A stretch of 64,000 nt of DNA from Giardia intestinalis. Taxonomy: Eukaryota. Positions 1 through 29,337 of the stretch are shown here, one piece after another. The stretch lies in the NCBI GenBank assembly GCA_000002435.2, contig CM018792.1; one strand, given 5' to 3'. The notes under the pieces are model-generated. The model was not told where the DNA came from, did not search any database, and saw only the letters and a list, made by a program, of their open reading frames with translations. Both the position numbers and the translations under genes were made by a program. Numbering within the stretch: position 1 is the first letter of the stretch; each line of letters begins with the position of its first letter.

Positions 1-31
1 CCGTGTTACAAATAAGTTCACATTGCGGCTA

Positions 32-3000
32 ATGCTCAATTTCTACAAGATTCAATCCAGTATTATCTTGGGCTCTGGACTCCCCCCTCACCTAACCGAT
101 CCATCCATTACATCTCGATTTAAGGTAGACATTTGGAGGAACGCCATGCAGCGCCATCAATTCTACAAAGCAGGAGAGGATCTTGAGCTAGATCTGTCTC
201 TTCCCCTGACACAAATGATTCTAAAGAAAAATTACGTCACTTTCCTCACAGACATGGTCTCAACTATGGATCCATCTAACGAGCATTCTGCGAGTTTCCT
301 GATAAGCCTTGCACTTATGGGAACAGACGGGGATCTTGACGTTTATTTCTACTCTAAGTTTATACGGTTGTTTCTCTGGGGTGTTTCCAGCAAGCGCACT
401 ATGGATACGTACTGGAGCGATATAGCCTATCTCCTCTACAATAATATGAACTACAAACGGTTGCACACCTCGAGGACCCTCAAGGAACTGAACTTCCCGT
501 CTATACATTCCACAGACTCTGAAGATTCTGAAGAGCAGCATGTCATGTTGCTAGGCAAACTGGAACAAGAGTTGGCCCCTGAAATATGTAATCTGGATAT
601 GGGATGCAGCCCCCTCTTTGAATTTGAACAAAGAAATCACTATTTCGTAAAGGACATGTTTTGGAACTTTCCGCTCAACGCGAGTTTTGCACGCACACGC
701 ATACTTTTGATGGATCAAGGACTGCGGCCTCCCCAGTTGGTTTTCTATGAGATGTGCATGCTTAAGCATGATCTTTCAAAGTCCCATGGACTCGCTACCT
801 CCCTCTACGCGTCTAAGAGTGATAAAAAGGGAAACTCCAGTGACCCTCAGGCACGGTTCAGATCTGCCTGTGCATCAGTGGTGAAAAGACTAACAGCTAA
901 CGATTCATCAGCAACTTCGTTTCTGACGGGTGCCAATTACGGCTCTAGTGCCTTGAACACGGAGGGTGGCAAAGACGCCGACGCCATGCACTTTGTCGAA
1001 GAGGATGCATATGGAATGAAGGGCTATGATGGCGGAAATTTGCTATCGTCAACTTTAGGAGTTATGAGCGGAACTGGAGAACCACATTGTCATGGCCCTG
1101 CTGCATCTGCAATTAAAGGCGTTCCCTCAACCCTGGGAGATGGGGCCTCCAGTGCCTCTGCCCTCGCTGAGGATCTCTTTGAAGAAGAGATAGACCTCGC
1201 CAAGCTATCTAGTCTTTTCTCTAAGCAGTATATTTCAGAGCAGGACATAGCCGGCACGGGACTATATGTAGATAACTTCTCCTTTGGCTCCGGGGAAAAG
1301 GCCAGCAAGAACAAGGTATGTGTTGTGGCAGGAGGTAAAGCAGATCCGAGTGCTACCGCTCCGTTCATGAAGGACCTGTTCAATCTCGACAGTAGAAAAG
1401 ATCAGAACAGCATGCTCGGACTAGGAAGCTTTTCGCTTAGTACCTTACAGCATAGAAAGGCGTCTCCGGCCAAAAAGAAGACTTTGCACGTGAATTCCGC
1501 GGGCCAACGGAAAGAGGGGACTAGTCAAGCTGATGCACATACCCCCTCAGATGCGACAGATAAGAAACAACTTCTGAGCGATAGTAGCTCTGATGACGGT
1601 GACATTGTGGCCGTCGCAGCATCTGACTCTGACGACATGGACCGAGCCTTTGGCCTGGAGGAGGAGGCCGCCAAAAAGTCAGGTACATCTAATGGTAGTG
1701 ATATTAGCGATGATGATTCTGATATTGAGTTTGTCGGGTCCAATTCTGATAATATGGACGCCGCGTTTGGCCTGATTAGCAGCTCCGATGAGTCGGATGT
1801 CCAGGACATTATGGATATGACTGACTCTTCTAGTGAAGGTGATGATTATAGTGATGGGTACAGTAGCGACGGTGATATAGTTGCTATAGGCTCCGATTCA
1901 GAAGAGATGGACGCGGCTTTTGGTCTAGAGAAAGAGCCAGTGAAGAGAGAGAGCAAACAGCTCTCTGCGCCGGTTTCCAAACCTCAACCGGAGGCACGCG
2001 GCTCCTTCGATTCTCTTATGGTTCCCGAAACCGTCTCAGGCGAAAAACGAATGGAAAAGCCAAAGCCCAAAATGACACTGATAGCTCAGAGCTTTGATGC
2101 ATTCGACGAGGCCCTAGAAGACAAGTACATGGAGAGTCTTCCAGATGATGAAAAGCAACTATACAGTGTTGGTGGGCCGTTGTCTTATCCCCTGATAGGA
2201 ACAGGTACTGTACTACCACCAAACGATGATGAAGGTATACAGGAGGTGCCCCTCAGGGCTCAAGGCGCTGAGAACACGTTCAGCTTCGGGAGCTTCGCGT
2301 CACTCCGAGACTCTGCGATGCAGCTTTTCTCCAAGCGACCACTATCAGATCAGCAGGCACAGGATGCACATTCAGATGCTATTGAAACTATTGGAGAGGA
2401 CTCCACCCTTATTCTAGAGCCGCTCGTCGGAGTTGATCGCCAAAAGGGGGGAACTTTGCATAATTCGTTTACCTCTGAGGGGCGTGCTGGCAACCATATA
2501 GACTCTGTCTCACTCAAAGATCCAACATATGAGCTCAAGGACAAGGACACAAGCCCGCTAACCTGTATGTCTGTCGGCAAGCTAGATATGGGTTTGGACA
2601 TAGATGATGAAGAATCAAACGTATTTTCTCAGCCCTTTCAGATGTTATCACTGACTGTTGACAAAAGTGTGAAAAGACTTGATGCCGTTTCAGTAATGGA
2701 CCCTTTGACCTCAGAAATCCATGACACTCAAGCAAGTAGCCAGGAAGCCTTTGCACTCGACATTAATCCGGAAGACAGTGAGAGCATAGACCGAGGAATC
2801 AACATTGGATTCGCACAAAATCTTCCGGAGGACGCTGGTGCTTTGACAAACCAGGATGACAACTTTGATTGTCTGCACTTATCCTTCCACAATGACAATA
2901 TAGAGTATCCTCACTCAGACTCTCATCTTTCATCCAGGGAGCATCATGATGATATAATAGCCAATGCAAATATTAGTAACAGCTCTGGAGAGTATGATCA

Positions 3001-6000
3001 GTCATTGAGAGTTGGACATGTTGCACACATGGCAATCAGCCAGGATTCCGATGAAAAGGTGAATGCCTACCTCAAAGATAGTGAGATGCACATTCCTGAG
3101 GAACACATGGCTCTCCTTATGACCAGGACTGTCATTCTGTTGATATATTCTACGTGGGCTGTGCTTCAGCGGTTTGGCCACAGGTATTCCAAAAGCATGT
3201 CACTAGCAGATGCATACTCCAAATTTCATATCCTGGTCGATCAAGTTCTCAGTGAAGGTACTCATCTGTATGGTAAGTGGAGAGAGTATAAAGATAAAGC
3301 GCAAGCAAGTAAGTCGACGAATGAGGAAGTTGATCCGCGTGTTAGGATGCTTTTAAAGTACGGCACTGATAAAGCCCATCCCTATGCCTTGACAAGAACT
3401 TTGGCCACCAACATTTTGTCTGTTGGAAGAGCATACATTCAAGCTCTCTGTGAAGAGCTGGGCACGCCCACTTCTTTTGATGATGACTGGGTATCATGGC
3501 CACTGTTAGTCAACGACTGTACACAATTGCATGAGGTAGACCTCGATAGCTTCTTGCGTTTCACACCAGATAACTACAAGACGTACCTGCAAAACAAGCT
3601 AACGGGCTCTGTGCGCAACAGTTCATTCTCCCAACTTACTGATGCTTCCGCCTTTGATCAGCAAAACTCTAGCTTCAGTGGCTCGATGGAGTTCTTTGAT
3701 AACCCCATGCTGCCCTTAGAGAACAACACCCTTGCGTATGATGTGCACTTTGGCAAGAGCAGCGTTATGGCTACTCTCCCAAGCATAAGTTTCAGTAAGA
3801 ACCAGACAACAACTGGACTGCTAAGCAGAGGCCCTAGTGCTCTACCGCCAGGGCGAAACTCGGTGAGTGGATCTAGATCAGTGTCAACCAATTTATCAGT
3901 TCATGACAAACTAGTTTGCTCACTTTTACATCCCCAAGTTGTGACTGACCACAGTGTGATTTTTCAATCGCATTCCAACAATCTTAATAACAACGAATTA
4001 ATGAAAAGGAAATGCGCTTCATGCAGCGATTTCTCACTCATGGCTGACGCAGCTCATTCTACTGAAGCCTTATTACACGCGTCCTCTGTGCCGTTGACAA
4101 AACTAAATGGTTTTCAAGACTTACTTGATCCTCCATCAGATGATCTTGCTTCAGATTCTAACGTCAACGCTATTGAGCCCCATGTCTCTCAAGTTAATCG
4201 AGTTTCCCTTGACGCTGATGAGTCATATGCTAAGACTGCCGAGGGAAGCTTTATTGAGCAGAACGTTCCTGCCACCATTGATTATTGTACAACTACATCT
4301 GCTGACTCTTCGCTACCCCACTCCTTGAGGAGTCGTAGCACCTTTTGCGGCTTATCGTTATGCACAGAAAGATTAAGACTGATCGAAAACTCTGCCAACT
4401 TCGATGTACCGCTCACCTTTCAATCACGGTCTGTATCCCTGCGGCACAAGGCAAGAGCTCCTCATAAGATGTCTAGATTGAGCTTGCACACCCATCAAAG
4501 ACATCACTACGGTATTAGGCCCATCGTAGAGATTGTAAAGACTCCTTCCATTATGGATAGCTCTATCAGTACCTCTCCTACAAATGTCAGTCTTACAGAA
4601 GAGCAGAACGTGGGCAAAGAAAAGGGGGACGATGGCCTCTTTGAACTCTCTGCCCAGAGCTCATCGCTGGAAACAGATAATTTGAAGATAGAGCTTATTA
4701 CAAATGACGTTGTTGATTTGATTACTCCGTTAAAGGTATCCTCTGGTCAAGTTCGCTCTTCTTCGCAAGAAAAGTGTACCCGTGATAGCCCATTGGAAAA
4801 TTCTGATAGCAACAGGTTAGCATTGCGGCCAGTATCTCAGAATCTTCACGCTTCTAACGCTCACTCCACCACTGACAACATCCCTTTGCTATCCCTCTCG
4901 GATAAGCAACAGCGTTTGGAGAATCTGATCTCTCATTCCATACATCCATTCCTCGTATCGAGCTGGAAGTTGACGAAGCAAAGACTCACACTAAATGCAT
5001 CTGGTCTGAATCCCAATAAAGGCTGGGTTATTCTGAGCATTATTGACGTAGCCCACTTCCTGCAGGGGATCGCGAAGATTATAAACGTGAGATCCACTAC
5101 GTCGTCATACGGAACTGATGCGCCTCAGGTGCGGCTTTATTGCAATGAGAACATTGTCTATGAGCCTCGCTCGCTTCAGAATACCGTCGCACACAGCAGG
5201 CTTCCAAAGACAATAAAGGAGACAGTCAAGCTGCGGCAAAACGTCCACGATCTATGGGTTAATATTGGTCTAGATGCAGCTGAGCGATCTCCCCTTGTGG
5301 GTATTCGCCACAGCACGAAAGAGCGACAAGGGTATATCATCCGGCGAAGTACTCAACACCACGATGATGAGATTAATAAATATGAAGGAGATCTGGATGT
5401 GACGAGAGCCCAAGTTTGTTCTAGAAAGGCCAATGGAAAGGTTGAGCTTAGGCTGAAGTCCCTCTTCGATCTCTTAGAAATTAAAAATAAGGATGTCTTT
5501 AATGCTGACAACGCCCCAGCCACCATGAATGTGGGTGGCAAGGAGATCTATGGTAACGACTGCTCTGACTTTAAGCAAAGCGGCCACAGCTCATCGGATG
5601 ACGGATATAACATTCCTTCAGGGTATAAGATCTTGAACACCTGCATGCCCGCAATGGGGGACATGGGTAAGCCTGTGTCAATATACCGTTTTTCTCGCAA
5701 CGCTCCCACAGGCGATTACTTCACTTTTCTGTATGCCAATTCTGTTGAAGGCAATAGAGCCGACTTCAAAGATAGTTTGGTCCCAGGAGACCAAAACTAT
5801 CTTGCCAATTGGTTAATTGAGACGGACAAGATAGAGCGGCCACAGGCCCAGATGGATGAGGTCATTGTACAGACCCAGGACTCTGTCAAGATAAAGCCAC
5901 TTCAGATTGATAGTGACGCAAAGGTTATGCCTAGCATACTTTCTACGGCGGCAATCTCCATCAACTCGCAAGCAAACTTGAAACGAGTGGGGTCCAGCAA

Positions 6001-7000
6001 CATATCTCATTCTGTGCTTCGCAGAAAGTCTGTCTCTGCGGCTAACATGTTTGCACTATATCCTCGGTCAGCCATTGGGCACATGTCAGAACCTTCTCCA
6101 CAGGCTCCAGTGGAGCAACCATTCGAGAATGTGTCTACTCCCTCTGTAAAACTTGATGATTATCAAATTGCGGCTGTCAATGAGGAGAATAGCATCGAAG
6201 GACTAAGTACTTTCCAAATAGAGCCTGTAACTAGCAACATGGATATGTCGTCAGAGCAGCAGACTGGGACTAACGACTTGAACGGCTATGACTTTCAGCT
6301 TGCCAGCTCAGAGATGGACAGTAAGGCGTTGACAGATGTTCATTGTTTCACCATCAGTACTCTTGTAAGTCAACCGTCGCTACCTGCACCACTCATTACT
6401 GAACAGGATAACAACAGCGAACCGGAGCATCCCAACGATGCAGAGAAAAGGCCTCTAGCAATGAAGAGCTGCACCACAGGCACCAGACCCTTGTTTCCGA
6501 CAATTACACGTCAAGACTATGAAGCAATGGAAAATGCACAGAGGCAGGCCTGTACAGAGGGCTTTGCTGATACAGGTGGCAATAGCACTCTTCAGGCTCT
6601 CTGTATAGATACGGGTGTCTACGTCAATCGAATGAGCTTTGAAGAACATGTGTTCATGCCGCACATCTTCCTCGAGATTCTCCTCGATCTGGTTGTCAAT
6701 GCAAGGCAATACTCTAAGCCCTCAATTGTCCGTGCTGCCCTATTTAACTGCCAAGAGTCGCTGTACCTTGTGGTCAATGATTGTGGAATAGGTCTTCCCA
6801 AGCAGTGCTGGCAGCATGCTTTCTTCCACCAGCAGGAGCTGGCAGATATCTCACAGTGCCTTGGGTCGGGTCTTGCCCGTGCCATCCTCATTACTCGTGC
6901 CTACGGCGGTATTATTAACGTAAGCTCGTGCAAGAACGGCGGAACTCGCCTCATACTCAAGATACCTCTTCCCAAGGAGTCAACATTTATCGACGCTTGA
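32..7000 (+). CDS. Large (~2,320 aa) hypothetical protein with three acidic 'D(G/S)DI(V/E)..SDS..MDxAFGL' tandem repeats near the N-terminus and a C-terminal GHKL/histidine-kinase-type ATPase (HATPase_c) domain. The 5' end is uncertain.
   Basis: The ORF is uninterrupted from 23 to 7000. Position 23 is TTG, the first ATG is at 32, and the frame stays open to the window edge, so the gene may start upstream of the window. The C-terminus (nt ~6640-6997) carries ordered histidine-kinase motifs: N-box LLDLVVNARQY (compare EnvZ LSNLVVNAARY), G1 VVNDCGIGL, an F-box-like AFFHQQ, G2 GSGLARAIL, and GGIINVSS-x4-GGTRLILKIPL. The stop is at 6998-7000. Confidence 0.8.
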   Translation: MLNFYKIQSSIILGSGLPPHLTDPSITSRFKVDIWRNAMQRHQFYKAGEDLELDLSLPLTQMILKKNYVTFLTDMVSTMDPSNEHSASFLISLALMGTDGDLDVYFYSKFIRLFLWGVSSKRTMDTYWSDIAYLLYNNMNYKRLHTSRTLKELNFPSIHSTDSEDSEEQHVMLLGKLEQELAPEICNLDMGCSPLFEFEQRNHYFVKDMFWNFPLNASFARTRILLMDQGLRPPQLVFYEMCMLKHDLSKSHGLATSLYASKSDKKGNSSDPQARFRSACASVVKRLTANDSSATSFLTGANYGSSALNTEGGKDADAMHFVEEDAYGMKGYDGGNLLSSTLGVMSGTGEPHCHGPAASAIKGVPSTLGDGASSASALAEDLFEEEIDLAKLSSLFSKQYISEQDIAGTGLYVDNFSFGSGEKASKNKVCVVAGGKADPSATAPFMKDLFNLDSRKDQNSMLGLGSFSLSTLQHRKASPAKKKTLHVNSAGQRKEGTSQADAHTPSDATDKKQLLSDSSSDDGDIVAVAASDSDDMDRAFGLEEEAAKKSGTSNGSDISDDDSDIEFVGSNSDNMDAAFGLISSSDESDVQDIMDMTDSSSEGDDYSDGYSSDGDIVAIGSDSEEMDAAFGLEKEPVKRESKQLSAPVSKPQPEARGSFDSLMVPETVSGEKRMEKPKPKMTLIAQSFDAFDEALEDKYMESLPDDEKQLYSVGGPLSYPLIGTGTVLPPNDDEGIQEVPLRAQGAENTFSFGSFASLRDSAMQLFSKRPLSDQQAQDAHSDAIETIGEDSTLILEPLVGVDRQKGGTLHNSFTSEGRAGNHIDSVSLKDPTYELKDKDTSPLTCMSVGKLDMGLDIDDEESNVFSQPFQMLSLTVDKSVKRLDAVSVMDPLTSEIHDTQASSQEAFALDINPEDSESIDRGINIGFAQNLPEDAGALTNQDDNFDCLHLSFHNDNIEYPHSDSHLSSREHHDDIIANANISNSSGEYDQSLRVGHVAHMAISQDSDEKVNAYLKDSEMHIPEEHMALLMTRTVILLIYSTWAVLQRFGHRYSKSMSLADAYSKFHILVDQVLSEGTHLYGKWREYKDKAQASKSTNEEVDPRVRMLLKYGTDKAHPYALTRTLATNILSVGRAYIQALCEELGTPTSFDDDWVSWPLLVNDCTQLHEVDLDSFLRFTPDNYKTYLQNKLTGSVRNSSFSQLTDASAFDQQNSSFSGSMEFFDNPMLPLENNTLAYDVHFGKSSVMATLPSISFSKNQTTTGLLSRGPSALPPGRNSVSGSRSVSTNLSVHDKLVCSLLHPQVVTDHSVIFQSHSNNLNNNELMKRKCASCSDFSLMADAAHSTEALLHASSVPLTKLNGFQDLLDPPSDDLASDSNVNAIEPHVSQVNRVSLDADESYAKTAEGSFIEQNVPATIDYCTTTSADSSLPHSLRSRSTFCGLSLCTERLRLIENSANFDVPLTFQSRSVSLRHKARAPHKMSRLSLHTHQRHHYGIRPIVEIVKTPSIMDSSISTSPTNVSLTEEQNVGKEKGDDGLFELSAQSSSLETDNLKIELITNDVVDLITPLKVSSGQVRSSSQEKCTRDSPLENSDSNRLALRPVSQNLHASNAHSTTDNIPLLSLSDKQQRLENLISHSIHPFLVSSWKLTKQRLTLNASGLNPNKGWVILSIIDVAHFLQGIAKIINVRSTTSSYGTDAPQVRLYCNENIVYEPRSLQNTVAHSRLPKTIKETVKLRQNVHDLWVNIGLDAAERSPLVGIRHSTKERQGYIIRRSTQHHDDEINKYEGDLDVTRAQVCSRKANGKVELRLKSLFDLLEIKNKDVFNADNAPATMNVGGKEIYGNDCSDFKQSGHSSSDDGYNIPSGYKILNTCMPAMGDMGKPVSIYRFSRNAPTGDYFTFLYANSVEGNRADFKDSLVPGDQNYLANWLIETDKIERPQAQMDEVIVQTQDSVKIKPLQIDSDAKVMPSILSTAAISINSQANLKRVGSSNISHSVLRRKSVSAANMFALYPRSAIGHMSEPSPQAPVEQPFENVSTPSVKLDDYQIAAVNEENSIEGLSTFQIEPVTSNMDMSSEQQTGTNDLNGYDFQLASSEMDSKALTDVHCFTISTLVSQPSLPAPLITEQDNNSEPEHPNDAEKRPLAMKSCTTGTRPLFPTITRQDYEAMENAQRQACTEGFADTGGNSTLQALCIDTGVYVNRMSFEEHVFMPHIFLEILLDLVVNARQYSKPSIVRAALFNCQESLYLVVNDCGIGLPKQCWQHAFFHQQELADISQCLGSGLARAILITRAYGGIINVSSCKNGGTRLILKIPLPKESTFIDA
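1592..1936 (+). repeat. Three imperfect tandem coding repeats (~23-25 aa core, period ~140-155 nt) encoding acidic 'DGDIVAVAASDSDDMDRAFGLEEE', 'DDSDIEFVGSNSDNMDAAFGLISS' and 'DGDIVAIGSDSEEMDAAFGLEKE'.
   Basis: Seen directly in the translation at 1592-1666, 1714-1782 and 1868-1936. The protein motif is conserved while the DNA differs by many synonymous changes. Confidence 0.75.
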
Positions 7001-7080: not shown

Positions 7081-7677
7081 ATGAGAAGTAAATTGTTAAT
7101 GATAATTCTAGTTCCGGCGCCGCTTCTTCGTGGCTGGAGAATCCTGACCCTACAGGCCCAGCGCTGGCACAGAACAGTGATCTATCTGCTTCGCCCCCTT
7201 TACCTCATCAGGTATATCTCTCTTCTCATTCTAGGACTTATCTTCATCTTTCGCTACCTCTTGGTAATCAAGAACATGCTCCCAATATTCCAGTTTATTA
7301 CTTTTCTATTGACTGTCTGGACTGGAGAGTGCATGAAAGCCCGCTACTCTGGAATTTACGAGTTACGCCCTCTCCTTATAGACGAGCCCTGGAATAACCT
7401 CAATCAGACGTTTACTGATAAATATGTTTTCTACGAGGCAGACGTGTGGATTAAGCTTTTCACGTCCAACGTTCTGGCGATCATCATGAGCTTCACAGAA
7501 CTCGGAAAGAGAGGCCTTCGCCTTCTTCCATTTGTGTTTTCACTGATAGCTGATGTTCTTCTCCAGATACTGAGACCATATGGGAAGTTTCGAGCCATGG
7601 GCTACAACAAGGGCTTGTTGCACTGCATCATAGACAGCTGCCAATACATGAACAGGGCTCTCCGGAACCGACTTTAG
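7081..7677 (+). CDS. Possible small (198 aa) multi-pass membrane protein, hypothetical.
   Basis: The ORF starts with ATG and is preceded by an AT-rich 80-bp spacer (7001-7080), which looks like a Giardia-type short promoter. It has 4-5 hydrophobic stretches (LLMIILVPAPLL, ISLLILGLIFIFRYLLVI, MLPIFQFITFLLTVW, VLAIIMSF, LLPFVFSLIADVLLQIL). It fills the gap between two convergent genes that would otherwise be unusually long. No homology was recognised. Confidence 0.4.
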   Translation: MRSKLLMIILVPAPLLRGWRILTLQAQRWHRTVIYLLRPLYLIRYISLLILGLIFIFRYLLVIKNMLPIFQFITFLLTVWTGECMKARYSGIYELRPLLIDEPWNNLNQTFTDKYVFYEADVWIKLFTSNVLAIIMSFTELGKRGLRLLPFVFSLIADVLLQILRPYGKFRAMGYNKGLLHCIIDSCQYMNRALRNRL

Positions 7678-12760: not shown

Positions 12761-14377
12761 CTACAGAAGATATACATAGAGGCTATACTGGCACAGTACT
12801 ACGAGAACACTTAATCCAGCATGGGTAATGATATTACAAGCAGTGATCATACTAGACCAGAGAGCTGGCTTTGGAGTCAGGAAGTGGGTACAGGGAGACG
12901 CTATGTGTGTGAACCCGACTCTACAAATATCTTTGGACAAACAGCATAATGACTGCTTATATGCACGTTGCGCTAAAGCCAATTCAGCACATGTGCATGT
13001 CCTAGTAGTTATGTGTGCAGAAACATGTGCGTGTATTGACTCTGATTTGCCGTCTGTATGGTTAGAAGTGCCTATAGTACCTATATACACTCCTCTTGTT
13101 GTTATATGCTGACCTGCGTGGCAGGGTCTGCGGAGCTTTCGCTCCACGTACCTATGGAGCAATGCTCTGAGCTTTTGCTCCATCTCCGTCGCTCTAAGAG
13201 TAGGTTTGCTTTGATCACATGTATATTCCTGCGCAACCCTAGAGATAATAGTACGCAAGAGATTCGCCTTCTGTGTGGGAGGCATGCTTACACCTGAGTC
13301 TGGTCTACATGCTTCTATGGCCTCTTGAAGCCCCCTGTCGAGGATGGCCTCGTGTAGCATGTCTTTCAGCGATCGAAGCTGGCGCTGGTTGCTGTGTTGA
13401 TGGCCGGTTTCAGAGATGCAAAGGTAATAACCAACTGGCACGTCAATTGCCCCTGAGAGATCATTACCCAGCGCAAAGCGTAAGCCGTGTAAGACGCACC
13501 TGCTGTCCATTGTTTCTCGAAAGTAAAACAGGAACTGTGTTGCACCAGTGTAGTAATCGGAGGACGAGCTGCCCCTCGTCAACAACGGGGTAAGTGGAGT
13601 TAGTTGTTTCTTCTCGACGTCAAGCTCAAAGCAGCACTTGCTTGTGAGACTGATGATTAGACTTTCGCGACAATTCCCGTAATCTAGTCTGTGCAATTTC
13701 ATACACTTTTCTATGGTAACTGGGGGCAAAACCAGCTCCTTCAGGGCCTTGCCACGTACTTCGTAACTTCCTATGTCCTGTTTACCTATCAATCTGAGAA
13801 GATTGCTCGTACTATGAATGTATAAAAAGCTGTGCTCAAAGATCCATAATTGGTGCCTATCAGTGATTGAGATGCAAATTCCACTACGCCCAAGTTGGAA
13901 GTATGCATCCAGATCACCAATCTTAGTCACCTCACAAGCAAACAGCGGAGAGCTCCTGCTGAAGCTAAAAATGACGTAACTGTCTAGCATAAGCAGTGAG
14001 CCAGGGGCATTCAGGCAACGACTGCAGCTCTCCTCGGTAAACATCTGAACGCGAGCTACTCCGGAGTATGTGTATTCATTGGTGCTAGAATTATAGATAC
14101 TGAGAAAGGGTGCTTGGCTAGTATATGATAAAATGAGTATGTTTTGGGCGAACATTTGAGCGTTCAATATATTGCGGCCGCTCAGCTGCAAAAAGGGTTC
14201 AAGGACTGTTCGCTGTGAAAGGGCTAAGAATAGTTGAGAGATTGAAAACCCTGAGACCTGCAGCTCAGAAAAGAACAAGATATGCGTATCAGTTGCACTG
14301 GAGCGAGTACAGCCTTCCAAGTGTCGCCAACAACCAGCAGCATCGGGCTGCAGGATCAGCTTACGATTGCAAGACAT
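12761..14377 (-). CDS. Hypothetical protein (~539 aa), no recognisable domain.
   Basis: A 1.7-kb uninterrupted reverse-strand ORF. The ORF-track start at 14467 is TTG. The first ATG is at 14375-14377 and lies 28 bp from the divergent neighbour's ATG across an AT-rich spacer. The C-terminal ~80 aa are Cys/His/Thr-rich and low-complexity, so the end is less certain. Confidence 0.55.
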   Translation of the reverse strand: MSCNRKLILQPDAAGCWRHLEGCTRSSATDTHILFFSELQVSGFSISQLFLALSQRTVLEPFLQLSGRNILNAQMFAQNILILSYTSQAPFLSIYNSSTNEYTYSGVARVQMFTEESCSRCLNAPGSLLMLDSYVIFSFSRSSPLFACEVTKIGDLDAYFQLGRSGICISITDRHQLWIFEHSFLYIHSTSNLLRLIGKQDIGSYEVRGKALKELVLPPVTIEKCMKLHRLDYGNCRESLIISLTSKCCFELDVEKKQLTPLTPLLTRGSSSSDYYTGATQFLFYFRETMDSRCVLHGLRFALGNDLSGAIDVPVGYYLCISETGHQHSNQRQLRSLKDMLHEAILDRGLQEAIEACRPDSGVSMPPTQKANLLRTIISRVAQEYTCDQSKPTLRATEMEQKLRALLHRYVERKLRRPCHAGQHITTRGVYIGTIGTSNHTDGKSESIHAHVSAHITTRTCTCAELALAQRAYKQSLCCLSKDICRVGFTHIASPCTHFLTPKPALWSSMITACNIITHAGLSVLVVLCQYSLYVYLL

Positions 14378-14405
14378 ACCCTTAAAACAAAAAATTGTAC
14401 TTAAA
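14378..14405. promoter_or_regulatory. Putative 28-bp AT-rich bidirectional promoter shared by two divergent genes.
   Basis: The spacer cttaaaacaaaaaattgtacttaaa lies between reverse-strand ATG 14377 and forward ATG 14406. Giardia promoters are known to be short AT-rich elements immediately upstream of the ATG. Confidence 0.5.
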
Positions 14406-17400
14406 ATGGATGGTGCCGACCTTCTGGAGCGCAATATTCGCACAATGCTCGAAGCTTCGTCCCGCAAGGTGCGTGAGGAAGCTGCGGTGCAACTTCAGCT
14501 AGCACTTAACGGCGGATCTCTGGCCCCGGAACAGGAGCGTAGTATTCTTGGTGCATACCTCACTCGCTTTCGCGATCCTTCTGAAGCCATGCGTCTTTGC
14601 GTTATAGAGATTGTCAGGGGGAGCTTTTCCAACCTTAGTTGTCTGGATGCTATCCTTCCACGTGCAATCCATGAGATTTATACCATCCTCGCCTGCGCAC
14701 CAGTCACAGAAGTAGAAAAATCCGAGGTTGTTCGGCTGCTCCTTTTGAAGCTGCTGCTTCGGATCATTCACACCTGCAATGAGAGCAATCCCTCTTTGAT
14801 CGAAAGCCTGTCACTTTTCTTTAAGGAGGTCACAGAAATTCTCAAGGCCCAGATGAAAGACCAGGCACCCGACAATCGCATAATAATCAACAAGTGCTTG
14901 TTCAAGCTCTCCAAAACGTATCAAAAGAGAAGCCATCTCTGGAATAAAGAGATAGTTCGCGATGTCACAGTTGCGATGCTAGAAAACTATAGGCACACGG
15001 TTTACACCGTCCGCATGACCACCATCGATACTCTATGCAGCATCCATCTTTCCCCAGCATCAGAAGACATAGCCACTCTTGTGGCCCCATACGTCTCCCT
15101 GTTTGTTAATGATTCTAATTTTAATGTGCGCCGGTCAGTAGCCACCATGGCTGCTGTATGGCTTGACGAACATATTGATCGGCACGTCTACTTGGACTTT
15201 TTCTGTGGGATTCTTTTGTCCTTGGCATTAGACAAGGACATTAACAAAGAGGTATTTGATCTCTTCATAGCTTGTGGAGAGACGTATGAGCGCGAGCATA
15301 AAGATGATCTAAGACTCTCCAAAGAGCTTAACCAGCCCCCTGTCATCGTTGGTTATAATAAGTTTCTCCAACGAGTGGCTCCACGTAATTACCTAGAAAA
15401 TGTCGCTAGATTGATTTCGGGGTCTGAGAGCATAGAGTCTCTAGAGTCGTGCCATCCGCTGCTGCGTTTAGGACTCGGCTGTAGGTGCCTTGCGGAAAAG
15501 ACAGCTGTTAAAGTCATCAAAGCTGTTCTGGCTGATATTACGGGGTCAAATGACGGCTACAGATCCAAGGCATGTGATATGCTTGCCATGCTTTTAATAA
15601 CTAATGAGCATAACAATATTCGTTATTCCCCAAGCATTCTGGAGCAATTGATATCATTTTTTGTAGGCGAAAGGATCCGGAATAACGTGCAGGAGCAACT
15701 GGACCACATCATGGATCTTGTTTTTTCATTCCTCATTCCACAAGAGATCATTTGCTTTATCCTGAGCTTTTACCGACGAAGCCAGTTGAGTGTTCGACAG
15801 CTAGGGGGGCTACTGACCCTCGTTAAAAAGTTTATTGATATTAGAACGTTTTTTATCCTGGAAGGCATACAGTACACCATAAAAGAACATAACTTAGACA
15901 TAGGGTACATAGTTAAAGTCATCAATGAGATCCTATTGAAGGATAACGTCCTTTACAACGATGATGCATATGTGCAGAGCTGCTTTCAAGGCTCAATCTA
16001 TTCCATCGTGAAGTACGTAATTCTTCTTTGCAACAATAGTACCAGTGAGGCCTTTGAGGCCAGTTTACGAGAAGTAGGAGAGGGAAAAGATGCTTCTGAC
16101 GTCTCAGACCTCCTGGCGAAGCTAACTATCTGTATAGTTTCAGCGGAGTCCAAGTCGATACCTGACAACGCCATTGCAGCAGCGCTGGAATCCCCATACG
16201 GAACAGCCAAACGCAGCCTCGATCAGCGTCACAAGACATCGGCAGCTTCTCTTGAGGTAGATCTTAATAGATATGAATCCAGGACAATAACAGAACTACT
16301 TAAGGCTTATTTTGGGAGGAAGTGCATCGATAACACCATTTTATCCGCCTATTTCACCAAGAGCTTTGACCTTATAAATCTTGACCCCACATCTTACGAC
16401 TTAGAGAAGCGCATGAGCTTCCTGATGAGAATGATGCTTTCATTTATTTCTGCTGGCTATCAACTGCCTCCAGAAGTCGAGAGCACCATGAGGAGGCTCT
16501 TCGTTCAACTTATGCGTTTAACCAATAAGACTGATTATCCTACGTGCATACGTACTGCTGCTTGTCGTTGTGTGTATCTAGTTGTCTCTTGCTTGACACG
16601 TACTCTGTCGATGAGCAATCCTAACATGCGATATTTCTTTGCGCAGATCCTACTTGTGTCTACATGGCAGTTTGGTGCGAGAACACCAGAGTGTCTGGAG
16701 TACCTTCTACGTGCACTCGCCTCCATGACGAGTAGCCTTACCATTGAGTCCTTTAACCTTCTTGGTCAGGCTCACAAAGATTGTCACGGGACACTCCTAG
16801 GCAGAATTGTCAGTAACTTAGATGCAGATACGCCTGGCTGCCGCATCGCTGCCCTCGATATCCTTAAAGGGGTGTATAGATATGTTGACTATGTCCGCAC
16901 CCTTGAACTATTGTATCAGCTAGTTCAGCGGGTGAATGATTGTGTCAGCAGAATTACTGTGGACTCGCTGCATCTCTGCGGGGAGATCTTATCTTTTCAT
17001 CACGAAGAAGCAATGAAAAGCCCCAAGAAGATGGCACGTCCTGGCCAAACAAATGTATTGGTGATTGCAAATAAGGAGCTTCTTAAGTTGCTAGTGCTGC
17101 ACATCGATGACTCCGTCTCTGAGATTTCAGATGCATGCATGGCTTTGCTCAAGCAGATGCGTTGTATGTGTACACAGCTGACATGCTATAACATCAGACA
17201 GCTTTGTGAAGAGCGGTTAGAGAGGTGTAGTCGGAGGGCGCTATATTCAGACTTGAAAGCTCTTTATGAAGATGTGCAATCAGAGCCCGCTGCTAACGAA
17301 GAGGAGATGCTCTTGACACGAGAGTATGAGGAGGAGGTTGCAAGAAGAGAACGTGAGCGCGAGCGCGAAAACTTAAGTAGTACGCCGAGTCATCCTGACT

Positions 17401-29180: not shown

Positions 29181-29337
29181 CATTCGTGGAGATTAAATGT
29201 TACTGGCTTAGCTTTAAGGCCTTCACAAAGATCACTAGTCAGTTGCGACCTGGGTATATTGGAGTTGCTAGAGTGGCTTAAAACTTGTGGTCAAAATTAA
29301 TTCCAACATTTTCGCCTCTTGTGGTTTAAATAGGCTA

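What the first reader, a model, noticed from the sequence alone, without database searches (positions are those of the whole stretch)
6440..7000. Bacterial-type histidine-kinase ATPase (HATPase_c) domain at the C-terminus of a ~2,300-aa diplomonad protein, with no canonical H-box
The last ~120 residues carry the full N, G1, F and G2 motif set of HisKA-family kinases. The N-box LLDLVVNARQY nearly matches EnvZ NLVVNAARY. A domain this well conserved is unlikely to be a decayed relic. Diplomonads are generally thought to lack two-component signalling. The domain ends a long, largely low-complexity acidic protein rather than following a recognisable dimerisation/phosphoacceptor (DHp) domain. About 95 residues upstream of the N-box, where an H-box would be expected, the sequence is ...SCTTGTRPLFPTI... 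(nt 6470-6505). It has an RPL like the H-E-L-R-T-P-L motif, but Thr occupies the position where the phospho-His would sit. This could be a divergent histidine kinase, a PDK/BCKDK-like Ser/Thr protein kinase, or a non-kinase GHKL ATPase.
Basis: partly seen in the sequence, partly recalled or inferred. Interest (0 to 1): 0.7.

Follow-up and report, generated by a model that had tools for sequence, protein, structure and literature searches.

The report
Orphan histidine-kinase ATPase domain on Giardia CAMKK
The end of Giardia's giant CAMKK-type protein kinase carries a real, strongly conserved bacterial-style histidine-kinase ATP-binding domain, left over from an old kinase-kinase fusion that deeper-branching relatives still keep intact; Giardia has no recognisable phospho-accepting histidine segment.

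Summary
Window nt 6485-6997 encode a complete histidine-kinase-type CA (HATPase_c) domain: Pfam gives 29.5 bits, a family-specific HMM gives 80 bits, and the AlphaFold core matches only bacterial HK CA domains.

The ORF is the last 2,332 codons of the 2,721-aa Giardia WB 'Kinase, CAMKK' GL50803_96363. Its Ser/Thr kinase domain lies upstream of the window. Manning 2011 already lists the HATPase_c hit in a supplementary table but never discusses it.

What I add:
- The same kinase-plus-CA architecture occurs in G. muris, a third Giardia-like species, Dysnectes and Barthelona.
- The closest relatives are a widespread bacterial family of ~305-aa soluble HK-like proteins with an invariant His ('MHSxLNxLNV') that no Pfam, NCBIfam or PDB entry covers.
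- Barthelona and Dysnectes keep that His domain. No Giardia species has a detectable one.
- Giardia keeps the nucleotide-binding residues under strong constraint (dN 0.03 against 0.20-0.27 in the linkers) but has lost several basic residues that are invariant in the family.

Most likely function: an ATP-binding regulatory module of the CAMKK, not a two-component kinase. This is inferred, not shown.

The parts
2..7000 (+). Last 2,332 codons plus stop of Giardia WB 'Kinase, CAMKK' GL50803_96363 (2,721 aa). The N-terminal Ser/Thr kinase domain (aa ~37-378) lies upstream of the window.
   Evidence: ORF. (2332/2332 identical to P0003 = XP_001709518.1). (names, gene id). (Pkinase 97.7 bits in the full-length protein).
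6485..6997 (+). Complete histidine-kinase-type catalytic/ATP-binding (CA, HATPase_c) domain, aa 2551-2721.
   Evidence: Alignment A2 to the related family from its 'PxxW' start motif to the C-terminus. The A-versus-B conservation island starts at aa ~2557. dN is 0.053 against 0.20-0.27 in the linkers.
6641..6997 (+). CA core (aa 2603-2721): the part matched by Pfam, NCBIfam, PDB and the family HMM, and modelled with confidence.
   Evidence: (80 bits, HMM positions 185-302). (probability 99.9). (pLDDT 76-91). (top 50 PDB matches are all HK CA domains).
6482..6508 (+). It is the equivalent of the family's 'PxxW(V)xxP' motif at the start of the CA domain, with Arg in place of the nearly invariant Trp.
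   Evidence: alignment columns 199-210. (W138 column: R in WB and GS, W in G. muris, Dysnectes and Barthelona).
6698..6712 (+). N box NARQY. The Asn (6698-6700) is invariant. The family-invariant Lys at N+3 is Gln in all three Giardia species.
6776..6793 (+). G1 box N-D-C-G-I-G (DxGxG intact).
6821..6826 (+). F box Phe-Phe. The following family-invariant Arg ('FGxRASN') is missing in G. intestinalis and present in G. muris.
6863..6883 (+). G2 box G-S-G-L-A-R-A. Both family-invariant Gly are kept, and Lys is replaced by Arg.
6935..6952 (+). G3 motif N-G-G-T-R-L (invariant Gly-Thr).
4901..5440 (+). 'Island 2' (aa 2023-2202): the second strongly conserved non-kinase block of the same protein. Fold and function are unknown, and it is not demonstrably part of the HK module.
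   Evidence: 82-90% identity A versus B. (40-62% identity to G. muris). (dN 0.065). (no Pfam hit). (only a weak, non-significant hhalign hint).

Best explanation
**Shown**
- Nt 6485-6997 encode an intact Bergerat-fold CA domain of the sensor-histidine-kinase type. It forms the C-terminus of Giardia's single CAMKK-class protein kinase.
- The same architecture, an N-terminal eukaryotic protein kinase with a C-terminal HK-type CA domain and no HisKA, occurs in G. intestinalis assemblages A and B, G. muris, Dysnectes brevis and two Barthelona strains. Manning 2011 lists it for assemblage E. A third Giardia-like species is known only from a syntenic C-terminal fragment cut by its contig end.
- The closest relatives of the CA domain are a large bacterial family of ~305-aa soluble HK-like proteins. 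They carry an invariant His in 'MHSxLNxLNV' and the N box 'DLxANARKY'. Some members are fused to REC or Hpt domains.
- Barthelona matches that family end to end, including the His. Dysnectes matches it with a ~145-aa insert. Giardia matches only the CA part.

**Inferred**
- An ancestor of these metamonads fused a complete soluble HK to a CAMKK-like kinase.
- In the Giardia lineage the His-bearing domain was lost or diverged beyond recognition.
- The CA domain was kept under strong purifying selection as a nucleotide-binding module. It most likely regulates or scaffolds the CAMKK (for example ATP-dependent control or dimerisation) rather than feeding a His-Asp phosphorelay, for which Giardia has no known partners.
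For: **Identity and fold.**

**Gene identity and integrity.**. Even the linker regions have pN ~0.2 against pS ~0.7, so the reading frame is one constrained gene.

**Orthologues with the same architecture.** (exhaustive phmmer; Pfam; names: G. muris TNJ30186.1, Dysnectes EP00768_P005542, Barthelona KAL0230028.1 and EP00792; only these carry the kinase domain; syntenic C-terminal fragment from a third Giardia-like species; Dysnectes shares the unusual DFSLT motif).

**Bacterial family.** (invariant H27; REC and Hpt fusions; 305 genomes across Spirochaetota, Verrucomicrobiota, Kiritimatiellota, Gemmatimonadota, Bacteroidota, Cyanobacteria and others; 2,122 hits).

**His domain present in Barthelona and Dysnectes, absent in Giardia.**
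- HMM positions 5-301 match in Barthelona, 4-154 plus 185-301 in Dysnectes, and 185-302 only in Giardia.
- no significant match elsewhere in the Giardia proteins.
- the H-box PSSM scores 35.7 and 34.2 bits in Barthelona and Dysnectes, but 3.4, 7.4 and 1.0 in the three Giardia proteins. The null median is ~6.

**Constraint.** dN is 0.03 in the CA core against 0.20-0.27 in the linkers. Amino-acid identity is 94% against ~62%.

**Residue pattern.** The nucleotide-binding invariants are kept: D-4/N/R of the N box, DxGxG, GxG and GT. The family-invariant R204, K212 and (in G. intestinalis) R256 are lost.

**No two-component partners reported.** Manning 2011, Kabbara 2018 and Ansell 2015.
Against: - No biochemical data exist. 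ATP binding, hydrolysis and phosphotransfer are all untested.
- A phospho-acceptor His could sit in a domain too diverged for HMM, PSSM or hhalign to find within the ~2,100-aa linker, or on another protein. Motifs noted by eye are 'NEHSASFLISL' (aa 482, conserved as HSA in all three Giardia species), 'PEEHMALLMTRTV' (aa 1421) and 'SHSIHPF' (aa 2033).
- The loss of Lys and Arg residues is read as weakening catalysis only by analogy with HK853, PhoQ and EnvZ, recalled from memory. Arg at N+2 is retained and might compensate.
- The NJ tree on 117 columns places the metamonads at the base of the family rather than nested inside bacteria. The direction and number of transfers are therefore unresolved.
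- Only the best 150 of 377 hits of the exhaustive search were visible, so further eukaryotic members could have been missed.
Confidence: 0.6

Rival explanations
1. The domain is still an active autophosphorylating histidine kinase. It would use a phospho-acceptor His that lies in a highly diverged helical domain elsewhere in the giant linker, or on a separate protein acting in trans.
For: - All core ATP-binding motifs are intact and strongly constrained.
- The ancestral architecture had an adjacent His domain that is still present in Barthelona and Dysnectes.
- An 'HSA' motif ~100 aa after the kinase domain is conserved in WB, GS and G. muris, roughly where the H-box lies in Dysnectes and Barthelona.
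- Giardia proteins often carry huge insertions. Dysnectes already has a 145-aa insert inside the module.
Against: - No Giardia segment scores above shuffled controls with the H-box PSSM, the family HMM, a metamonad-specific HMM or hhalign.
- No HisKA or Hpt hit at E<=10.
- The family-invariant K212 and R204 are replaced in all Giardia species.
- No REC or HPt partner has been reported.
Confidence: 0.2
2. The CA domain has been converted into a Ser/Thr (or auto-) protein kinase. Precedents are PDK/BCKDK, plant phytochromes and ETR2-type receptors, and anti-sigma kinases such as SpoIIAB/RsbW. The protein would then have two kinase activities.
For: - His-less HK-derived Ser/Thr kinases are an established evolutionary route; phytochromes and ERS2-type receptors are cited in Kabbara 2018.
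- The ATP-binding residues are intact.
Against: - No BCDHK_Adom3 or HATPase_c_2 hit.
- All sequence and structure neighbours are sensor HKs. BCKDK appears only as a partial match with zero qualifying stretches, and only to the bacterial family profile.
- No substrate-docking domain is identifiable next to the CA domain.
Confidence: 0.12
3. The domain is a decaying relic without function, or an artefact such as bacterial contamination, a recent horizontal fragment or a mis-assembly.
For: - The Pfam score of the whole protein is marginal (25.2 against 26.4).
- The F-box/lid Arg (R256) and one Gly upstream of the G2 box (G267) are degenerate in G. intestinalis.
Against: - dN of the CA core is 0.03 against 0.20-0.27 in the flanking linkers, with 94% identity between assemblages whose synonymous sites are saturated.
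- The domain is conserved in G. muris, a third Giardia-like species, Dysnectes and Barthelona.
- The window is 100% identical to the WB reference protein.
- Synteny and eukaryotic neighbours.
Confidence: 0.03

Closest known systems
CA (HATPase_c) domains of class I bacterial sensor histidine kinases (WalK/YycG, SrrB, PhoQ, PhoR, HK853, EnvZ, RstB)
   Same: - N, G1, F, G2 and G3 motifs, and the alpha/beta sandwich fold.
- Best PDB sequence hits are SrrB, YycG and PhoQ.
- Best NCBIfam hits are RstB, LuxQ, TorS, EnvZ, PhoQ and WalK, all through their CA part only.
- The Foldseek top 50 are all HK CA domains.
   Different: - No adjacent HisKA/DHp domain.
- Lys at N+3 of the N box is replaced by Gln, and the F-box Arg is missing.
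- The domain sits at the end of a eukaryotic Ser/Thr kinase, and there is no receiver partner.
Unnamed bacterial family of ~305-aa soluble HK-like proteins (for example P0035, P0037, P0038; annotated only as 'sensor histidine kinase' or 'ATP-binding protein')
   Same: - Nearest relatives of the Giardia CA domain: 80 bits to the family HMM, and the best non-metamonad hits of the exhaustive search.
- Shared signatures not typical of other HKs: 'MP' before the N-box helix, D-L-x-x-N-A-R-x-Y, G-x-G-L-x-K/R-A, G-T-R-x-x-I-x-I-P-x-P.
   Different: - Bacterial members, Barthelona and Dysnectes have an N-terminal ~140-aa domain with an invariant His ('MHSxLNxLNV'). Giardia has none detectable.
- Giardia also lacks the family-invariant R204, K212 and, in G. 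intestinalis, R256 and W138.
Eukaryotic and bacterial hybrid proteins that combine a protein kinase domain with a histidine kinase: fungal group X HKs with an S/TKr domain, Dictyostelium DhkG with a TyrK domain (Kabbara 2018), and cyanobacterial HstK-type proteins (from memory)
   Same: One polypeptide carries a eukaryotic-type protein kinase domain at the N-terminus and an HK catalytic domain further C-terminal.
   Different: - Those proteins have canonical HisKA plus HATPase_c, usually with a REC domain, and count as bona fide hybrid HKs.
- The metamonad proteins use a different, Pfam-invisible His domain (Barthelona, Dysnectes) or none (Giardia), and have no REC.
- Their kinase belongs to the CAMKK class.
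Degenerate or repurposed HK domains: DivL and RetS pseudo-kinases, plant phytochromes and ETR2-type receptors, PDK/BCKDK
   Same: An HK-derived ATP-binding domain is retained after loss of His phosphotransfer and is used for regulation, scaffolding or Ser/Thr phosphorylation. RetS and DivL appear among the PDB profile hits of the related family.
   Different: - No homology beyond the shared GHKL/HK fold.
- The PDK-specific N-terminal domain is absent.
- Which of these functional outcomes applies to Giardia is untested.

Membership tests
GHKL / HATPase_c, histidine-kinase CA subtype | N box with the Mg-ligand Asn (and the polar residue at N-4) | tested here: met
   D2618 and N2622 align with the family-invariant D205 and N209. 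The Pfam, PDB and NCBIfam alignments run through this helix.
GHKL / HATPase_c, histidine-kinase CA subtype | G1 box DxGxG and G2 box GxGxG/L | tested here: met
   D2649-C-G-I-G and G2677-S-G-L are present. Both Gly of the G2 box are kept. Only G267, a family-invariant Gly two residues upstream of it, is Cys in G. intestinalis.
GHKL / HATPase_c, histidine-kinase CA subtype | Score above the curated Pfam threshold | tested here: met
   29.5 bits against GA 26.4 for the 232-aa fragment. The 2,332-aa translation scores 25.2, just below. G. muris scores 34.6, Dysnectes 47.8 and Barthelona 51.8.
GHKL / HATPase_c, histidine-kinase CA subtype | Bergerat alpha/beta sandwich fold | tested here: met
   AlphaFold2 with a 115-sequence alignment gives pLDDT 76-91 for the core. 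The Foldseek PDB top 50 are all HK CA domains, with 111-137 columns aligned at 3.4-5.6 A. The N-terminal third of the domain is modelled with low confidence.
Classical two-component sensor histidine kinase | A dimerisation/phospho-acceptor (HisKA/DHp) domain with a conserved His immediately N-terminal of the CA domain | tested here: not met
   No HisKA, HisKA_2, HisKA_3 or Hpt hit at E<=10 on the whole protein or its pieces. NCBIfam HK models match only through their CA part. The sequence upstream of aa 2551 is poorly conserved (43% A versus B) and has pLDDT below 50.
Classical two-component sensor histidine kinase | A cognate receiver (REC) or HPt partner in the genome | not testable with these tools
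   The Giardia proteome could not be searched here. In the literature, Manning 2011 reports no classical HKs, Kabbara 2018 reports 0 HKs, and Ansell 2015 found no response-regulator candidate.
Classical two-component sensor histidine kinase | ATP-dependent autophosphorylation on His | not testable with these tools
   Biochemical assay needed.
~305-aa 'MHSxLN' HK-like family (bacteria, plus the C-terminal modules of Barthelona and Dysnectes) | CA domain with the family signatures (MP..DLxxNARxY, GxGLxKA, GTRxxIxIPxP) | tested here: met
   78-84 bits over HMM positions 185-302 for WB, GS and G. muris. hhalign probability 99.9. Fifteen family-invariant positions are retained.
~305-aa 'MHSxLN' HK-like family (bacteria, plus the C-terminal modules of Barthelona and Dysnectes) | N-terminal ~140-aa domain with the invariant His (H27 of P0035) | tested here: not met
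   In Giardia there is no HMM match to positions 1-184, no hhalign match, and PSSM maxima of 3.4, 7.4 and 1.0 bits against a null median of ~6. The feature is met in Barthelona (35.7 bits, HMM positions 5-301) and Dysnectes (34.2 bits).
PDK/BCKDK mitochondrial protein kinases | N-terminal four-helix BCDHK_Adom3 domain preceding the HATPase_c domain, and closest similarity to PDK-type ATP-binding domains | tested here: not met
   No PF10436 hit at E<=10. No PDK or BCKDK among the PDB sequence hits of the Giardia fragment or the Foldseek top 50.
Anti-sigma-factor Ser kinases (HATPase_c_2; SpoIIAB/RsbW) | Match to PF13581 and a small stand-alone architecture | tested here: not met
   No PF13581 hit for Giardia. 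The domain is the terminus of a 2,721-aa protein.
CAMKK class of eukaryotic protein kinases (the host protein) | ePK catalytic domain with the K/D/D catalytic residues and CAMKK-class placement | not tested
   The domain lies outside the window. Pkinase scores 97.7 bits in full-length P0001. The 'Active (K,D,D present)' note and the CAMKK class come from Manning 2011 Additional file 1 and were not re-derived here.

The most novel reading that the evidence does not exclude
Early metamonads carried a 'two-kinase' signalling protein in which a complete soluble histidine kinase of an undescribed type was fused to the CAMKK. Its His sits in an 'MHSxLN' helix with Ser, not Glu/Asp, at H+1. The CAMKK is the only candidate activator of AMPK in Giardia, which lacks LKB1. 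In Giardia the surviving CA domain would work as an adenine-nucleotide (energy-state) sensor or ATP-driven switch gating CAMKK-to-AMPK signalling. That would give the parasite a GHKL pocket with no host counterpart on the homologous kinase.
Probability: 0.12. Interest if true: 0.8.

Novelty: new variant of a known kind. Interest (0 to 1): 0.5.

Why it matters
**A qualification to the textbook view.** Giardia and other diplomonads are described as lacking histidine kinases and two-component signalling. That remains true in the strict sense. However, Giardia's sole CAMKK carries, under strong constraint, the catalytic half of a histidine kinase, and free-living or deeper-branching relatives (Dysnectes, Barthelona) keep the whole kinase including the phospho-acceptor His.

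**What this offers.**
- A dated series from complete kinase, to kinase with an insertion, to orphan CA domain, showing how an HK module is repurposed inside a eukaryotic kinase.
- A large bacterial HK-like family whose His domain is absent from Pfam, NCBIfam and PDB.
- A testable idea for how the parasite's only candidate AMPK-activating kinase is regulated.
- A GHKL ATP pocket, a druggable site with no counterpart on the host CAMKK.

**Limit.** The bare domain hit is not new. It has sat in a 2011 supplementary table and in precomputed Pfam annotation.

Tried and rejected
1. **Single-sequence AlphaFold of the last 232 aa.** pLDDT was 40 and the model was unusable. It was replaced by a run with a 115-sequence alignment.

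2. **Word-index searches for distant relatives.** The whole protein returned only two Giardia clusters, because low-complexity words saturated the candidate list. The C-terminus alone returned one fragment. The exhaustive phmmer search was needed.

3. **My first idea about 'island 2' (aa 2023-2202).** I thought it supplied the H-box ('SHSIHPF') and the first strand and helix of the CA domain, with a ~400-aa insertion in between. I rejected this for three reasons:
   - The first His is not conserved in G. muris.
   - The motif lies too close to the supposed 'W' motif.
   - G. muris 'DWVNFPGIT' immediately upstream of the CA core shows the CA domain is contiguous.

4. **Other candidate H-boxes found by eye.** These were aa 482 'NEHSAS', aa 1421 'PEEHMALLMTRTV' and 'KVDIW' after the kinase domain. 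None scored above shuffled controls.

5. **Genomic context of the bacterial family in three genomes.** There was no conserved neighbour and no adjacent response regulator, so it gave no functional lead.

6. **Looking for a name or structure for the family's His domain.** Pfam run on all 50 members at E<=10, NCBIfam and a PDB profile search matched only the CA part.

7. **dN/dS.** Synonymous sites between assemblages A and B are saturated (pS ~0.7), so only dN contrasts are meaningful.

8. **NJ tree of the CA core.** The family separates from HisKA-type HKs, but the metamonads fall at its base on long branches. The donor lineage and monophyly are unresolved, and no bootstrap was run.

9. **Literature.** I found no paper that discusses this domain beyond the supplementary table.


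Full report
**1. What is at the coordinates**

A single + strand ORF runs from the first base of the window to a stop codon at 6998-7000. No ORF of 100 aa or more lies on the opposite strand in this stretch.

Pfam finds one domain in the 2,332-aa translation: HATPase_c (PF02518) over the last ~100 residues.
- The whole translation scores 25.2 bits.
- The last 232 aa alone score 29.5 bits, E 1.1e-6, against a gathering cut-off of 26.4.
- No HisKA, HisKA_2, HisKA_3, Hpt or BCDHK_Adom3 hit appears at E<=10, either in the whole protein or in four separately scanned pieces.

The hits point to sensor histidine kinases specifically.
- phmmer against PDB returns only bacterial sensor histidine kinases at E<=0.2 (22 chains); the best are SrrB, YycG/WalK, PhoQ and PrrB at E ~2e-5.
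- NCBIfam returns 40 two-component kinase models (RstB, LuxQ, TorS, EnvZ, PhoQ, WalK and others). In each of the 25 listed, only the C-terminal catalytic part matches.

- N box NARQY, nt 6698-6712
- G1 NDCGIG, nt 6776-6793
- F box FF, nt 6821-6826
- G2 GSGLARA, nt 6863-6883
- G3 NGGTRL, nt 6935-6952

**2. What the protein is**

The translation is 100% identical (2332/2332) to residues 390-2721 of XP_001709518.1, 'Kinase, CAMKK' of Giardia lamblia ATCC 50803. This is gene GL50803_96363 in the Giardia kinome paper. The window therefore cuts off the first 389 residues.

Those residues hold a eukaryotic Ser/Thr protein kinase domain (Pkinase, 97.7 bits). Manning et al. 2011 class it as the single Giardia CAMKK and note 'Active (K,D,D present)'.

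The same supplementary table already lists 'PF02518 HATPase_c, 2e-06' for this gene and for its assemblage E orthologue GLP15_4693. The main text nevertheless says only that 'Giardia lacks classical histidine kinases'.

Kabbara et al. 2018 count 0 HKs in Giardia and Spironucleus. Their filter required two of HisKA, HATPase_c and REC, which this protein fails.

Ansell et al. 2015 proposed a different gene (GL50803_10403) as HK-like and found no response regulator.

I found no paper that discusses the domain itself.

**3. It is a real, constrained part of a Giardia gene**

*Conservation between assemblages A and B (69% identical overall):*

| Region | Identity A vs B |
|---|---|
| Kinase domain | 97-100% |
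| Most of the linker | 40-70% |
| 'Island 2', aa 2023-2202 | 82-90% |
| Block just before the C-terminal island | 43% |
| Last ~165 residues | 85-95% |

*Divergence from the assemblage B locus DNA (L081).* Synonymous sites are saturated (pS ~0.7), so only the non-synonymous values are informative.

| Region | dN |
|---|---|
| CA core | 0.03 |
| Island 2 | 0.065 |
| Linkers | 0.20-0.27 |

Even in the linkers pN is far below pS. The whole reading frame therefore behaves as one coding gene.

*Context.* The gene's neighbours are ordinary eukaryotic genes: a DSHCT helicase, eIF4E, DNAAF5, an RNase PH subunit, an XPD-type helicase and pyruvate kinase. The kinase-helicase arrangement recurs in assemblage B. 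It also recurs in a contig from a third, GC-richer Giardia-like organism (L083).

Contamination, a recent horizontal fragment and decay are excluded.

**4. Relatives**

An exhaustive phmmer search with aa 2010-2721 against 1.84 billion representatives gave 377 hits at E<=1e-3. Only the best 150 are listed.

*Metamonad orthologues.* After Giardia itself, the top hits are:
- G. muris CAMKK, 2,177 aa
- two fragments, P0032 and P0033
- Dysnectes brevis, 779 aa
- further down the list, two Barthelona strains, 662 and 665 aa

Pfam shows the same architecture in each tested orthologue (G. muris, Dysnectes, Barthelona PCE): an N-terminal Pkinase domain, a C-terminal HATPase_c domain and no HisKA. Among all fetched sequences, only these carry the kinase domain. 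Dysnectes shares with Giardia the unusual DFSLT in place of DFG.

*A bacterial family.* Apart from a few multi-domain hybrid kinases, the remaining best hits are dozens of ~300-310-aa proteins that form one family.
- It has an invariant His in 'LLxMHSxLNxLNVL' near the N-terminus.
- Its other signatures are a 'PxxW' motif, the N box 'DLxANARKYTxPGG', 'VEDxGxGIP', 'FGxRASN', 'GGGFGLTKA' and 'GTRIxIxIPxP'.
- Some members carry REC and/or Hpt domains N-terminally, which places the family in the phosphorelay world.
- The family is bacterial and widespread. It was found in 305 genomes, including Spirochaetaceae, Opitutae/Verrucomicrobiota, Kiritimatiellota, Gemmatimonadota, Fidelibacterota, Desulfobacterota, Bacteroidota, Thermosynechococcus and Ectothiorhodospira. 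A profile search gave 2,122 hits.
- Its His-bearing N-terminal ~140 residues match nothing in Pfam (all 50 members scanned at E<=10), NCBIfam or PDB.
- No conserved gene neighbour was seen in three genomes.

**5. How much of that module do the eukaryotic proteins retain?**

I built an HMM from 65 bacterial members and ran it against the metamonad proteins.

| Protein | HMM positions matched (of 305) | Score |
|---|---|---|
| Barthelona | 5-301 or 9-301, including 'DFHSIVNVINIV' | ~185 bits |
| Dysnectes | 4-154 ('LTYHSAVNVFNII') | 33 bits |
| Dysnectes | 185-301, after a ~145-aa insert | 109 bits |
| Giardia WB, GS, G. muris | 185-302 only | 78-84 bits |

Three further tests looked for the His domain in Giardia, and none found it.
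- **hhalign.** Sliding windows of a three-species Giardia alignment were compared with the family. Only the CA part was significant (probability 99.9). Everything else stayed below 1%.
- **Metamonad-specific HMM.** An HMM of the post-kinase region of Barthelona and Dysnectes found nothing in Giardia.
- **H-box PSSM.** A 28-column ungapped PSSM scored 35.7 bits in Barthelona and 34.2 bits in Dysnectes. The 95th percentile of shuffled maxima is ~9. The best scores in WB, GS and G. muris were 3.4, 7.4 and 1.0, below the shuffled median of ~6.

So no Giardia orthologue has a detectable family-type H-box. Several His motifs that I had noted by eye (aa 482, 1421, 2033) have no statistical support.

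**6.

In a MAFFT alignment of the metamonad and bacterial sequences, 'GTRPLFPTIT' (Giardia) and 'SDWVNFPGIT' (G. muris) fall on the family's 'PxxW(V)xxP' motif. Barthelona has 'EAWVNMPIA' there. This motif follows the last helix of the His domain and opens the CA domain.

The nearly invariant Trp is Arg in G. intestinalis and Trp in G. muris.

The CA domain is therefore contiguous and complete, spanning aa 2551-2721 (nt 6485-6997). The TRPL motif is its first element, not a decayed phospho-acceptor site.

**7. Structure**

AlphaFold2 with a 115-sequence alignment gave pLDDT 76-91 for the core. The secondary structure runs N-box helix, beta hairpin, F helix, lid helix, G2 helix, then two strands.

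The first third of the domain and the upstream sequence are modelled with low confidence.

Foldseek against PDB returned 97 matches at E<=1e-3. The top 50 are all bacterial HK CA domains (YycG/WalK, ZraS, HK853, CckA, EnvZ chimeras, PhoQ, VraS). None of them is GyrB, Hsp90, MutL or PDK.

**8. Residue pattern**

*Kept in Giardia.* Every family-invariant position tied to the nucleotide pocket is retained (P0035 numbering):
- the Pro before the N-box helix
- D205, N209, R211 and Y213
- D237, G239 and G241
- G269, G271 and A275
- G284, G295, T296 and P303

*Lost in Giardia.*
- R204 becomes Leu or Val.
- K212 becomes Gln in all three Giardia species (NARQY).
- In G. intestinalis only: R256 of 'FGxRASN' is absent, G267 becomes Cys and W138 becomes Arg.

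By analogy with HK853, PhoQ and EnvZ, the N+3 Lys/Arg and the F-box Arg contact the ATP phosphates. This rests on my recollection of those structures and was not tested here. The pattern is what one would expect if nucleotide binding were kept while His phosphotransfer was relaxed.

The Giardia-like species on L083 even carries a ~140-aa insertion in the ATP lid.

**9. Interpretation**

*Shown.*
- The domain is an intact HK-type CA domain under strong constraint at the C-terminus of the Giardia CAMKK.
- The kinase-plus-HK architecture is shared with Dysnectes and Barthelona, where the His domain is present.
- Giardia has no detectable His domain.

*Inferred.*
- A complete soluble HK of this family was fused once to a CAMKK-like kinase in an ancestor of these metamonads. 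A bacterial origin is the parsimonious reading of the family's distribution. An NJ tree of the 117-column CA core only places the metamonads at the base of the family on long branches, so the donor and monophyly are unresolved.
- The Giardia lineage later lost the phospho-acceptor part and expanded the linker to ~2,100 aa.

*Most likely function in Giardia.* A nucleotide-binding regulatory or scaffolding module of the CAMKK, not a two-component kinase. I give this reading 0.6 as a whole: about 0.9 for the identity and evolutionary parts, about 0.5 for the mechanism.

*Rivals.*
- A cryptic, still active His kinase: 0.2.
- Conversion to a Ser/Thr kinase: 0.12.
- A relic or artefact: 0.03.

*A lead, not a result.* Giardia has three AMPK-family kinases and one CAMKK but no LKB1. 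This makes an energy-sensing role for an ATP-binding domain on the AMPK-kinase candidate attractive.

**10. Novelty and score**

The Pfam hit itself is already public (a supplementary table and precomputed annotations). As far as my literature searches show, these points are not described:
- the metamonad-wide fusion
- the specific bacterial family with an uncatalogued His domain
- the graded loss of that domain in Giardia
- the reassignment of the 'RPL' motif

I rate this a new variant of a known kind (protein kinase / histidine kinase hybrids and degenerate HK domains), with interest 0.5.

**Caveats**
- E-values from my own hmmsearch runs use tiny databases, so bit scores are quoted instead.
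- Only 150 of the 377 exhaustive hits were visible.
- Other fornicate and metamonad genomes could not be searched.
- No bootstrap was run on the tree.

Noticed in passing
Loci L001-L080; proteins P0035-P0178 and P0183-P0292: A widespread bacterial family of ~305-aa soluble HK-like proteins. The N-terminal ~140-aa domain carries an invariant His in 'MHSxLNxLNV', with Ser/Thr rather than Glu/Asp at H+1. It has no Pfam, NCBIfam or PDB match. Some members are fused to REC and/or Hpt. In three genomes the genes look orphan, with no conserved neighbour.
   Followed up: partly
window 4901-5440 (+), aa 2023-2202 of the CAMKK: 'Island 2' is a 180-aa block as conserved as the CA domain: 88% identity A versus B, dN 0.065, and 40-62% identity to G. 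muris, including 'WVNIGLDAAERSPLVGIRHSTKERQGYIIRRST'. It has no Pfam hit and only a non-significant hhalign hint. Its fold and role are unknown.
   Followed up: partly
window 1631-1657, 1748-1774 and 1901-1927 (+): Three copies of a short motif, 'S(D/N)S(D/E)xMDxAFGL', each preceded by 'D-I-V/E-F-V' and set in Ser/Asp-rich acidic sequence. All three are conserved in assemblage B. This may be a repeated linear binding motif in the linker.
   Followed up: no
window 2-814 (+), aa 390-660: The ~270 residues directly after the kinase domain are well conserved (82% A versus B; 48-58% to G. muris over aa 485-564). They have no Pfam hit. This is where the His domain begins in Barthelona and Dysnectes, yet no homology to it could be shown.
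   Followed up: partly
L083:114-1172 (protein P0032; Logan SRR14944320): A GC-richer, Giardia-like organism has a syntenic orthologue (kinase, TBCC, DSHCT helicase, ..., pyruvate kinase, ..., Rpb1). Its CA domain carries a ~140-aa Ala/Asp/His-rich insertion between the F box and the G2 box, that is, inside the ATP lid.
   Followed up: partly
window 34782-55706 (-): An uninterrupted 6,974-aa ORF with no Pfam domain at E<=1e-5 in either half. It is a giant protein of unknown function.
   Followed up: partly
window 7081-7677 (+), compared with L081:10020-10364 and L083:1407-2252: The small gene between the CAMKK and the DSHCT helicase differs between lineages. It is a 198-aa ORF with no Pfam hit in WB, a 114-aa called gene in assemblage B, and a 281-aa TBCC-domain gene in the Giardia-like L083.
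   Followed up: no
window 29287-34755 (+) and 12761-14467 (-): Two further long ORFs (1,822 aa and 568 aa) have no Pfam match at E<=1e-4.
   Followed up: no
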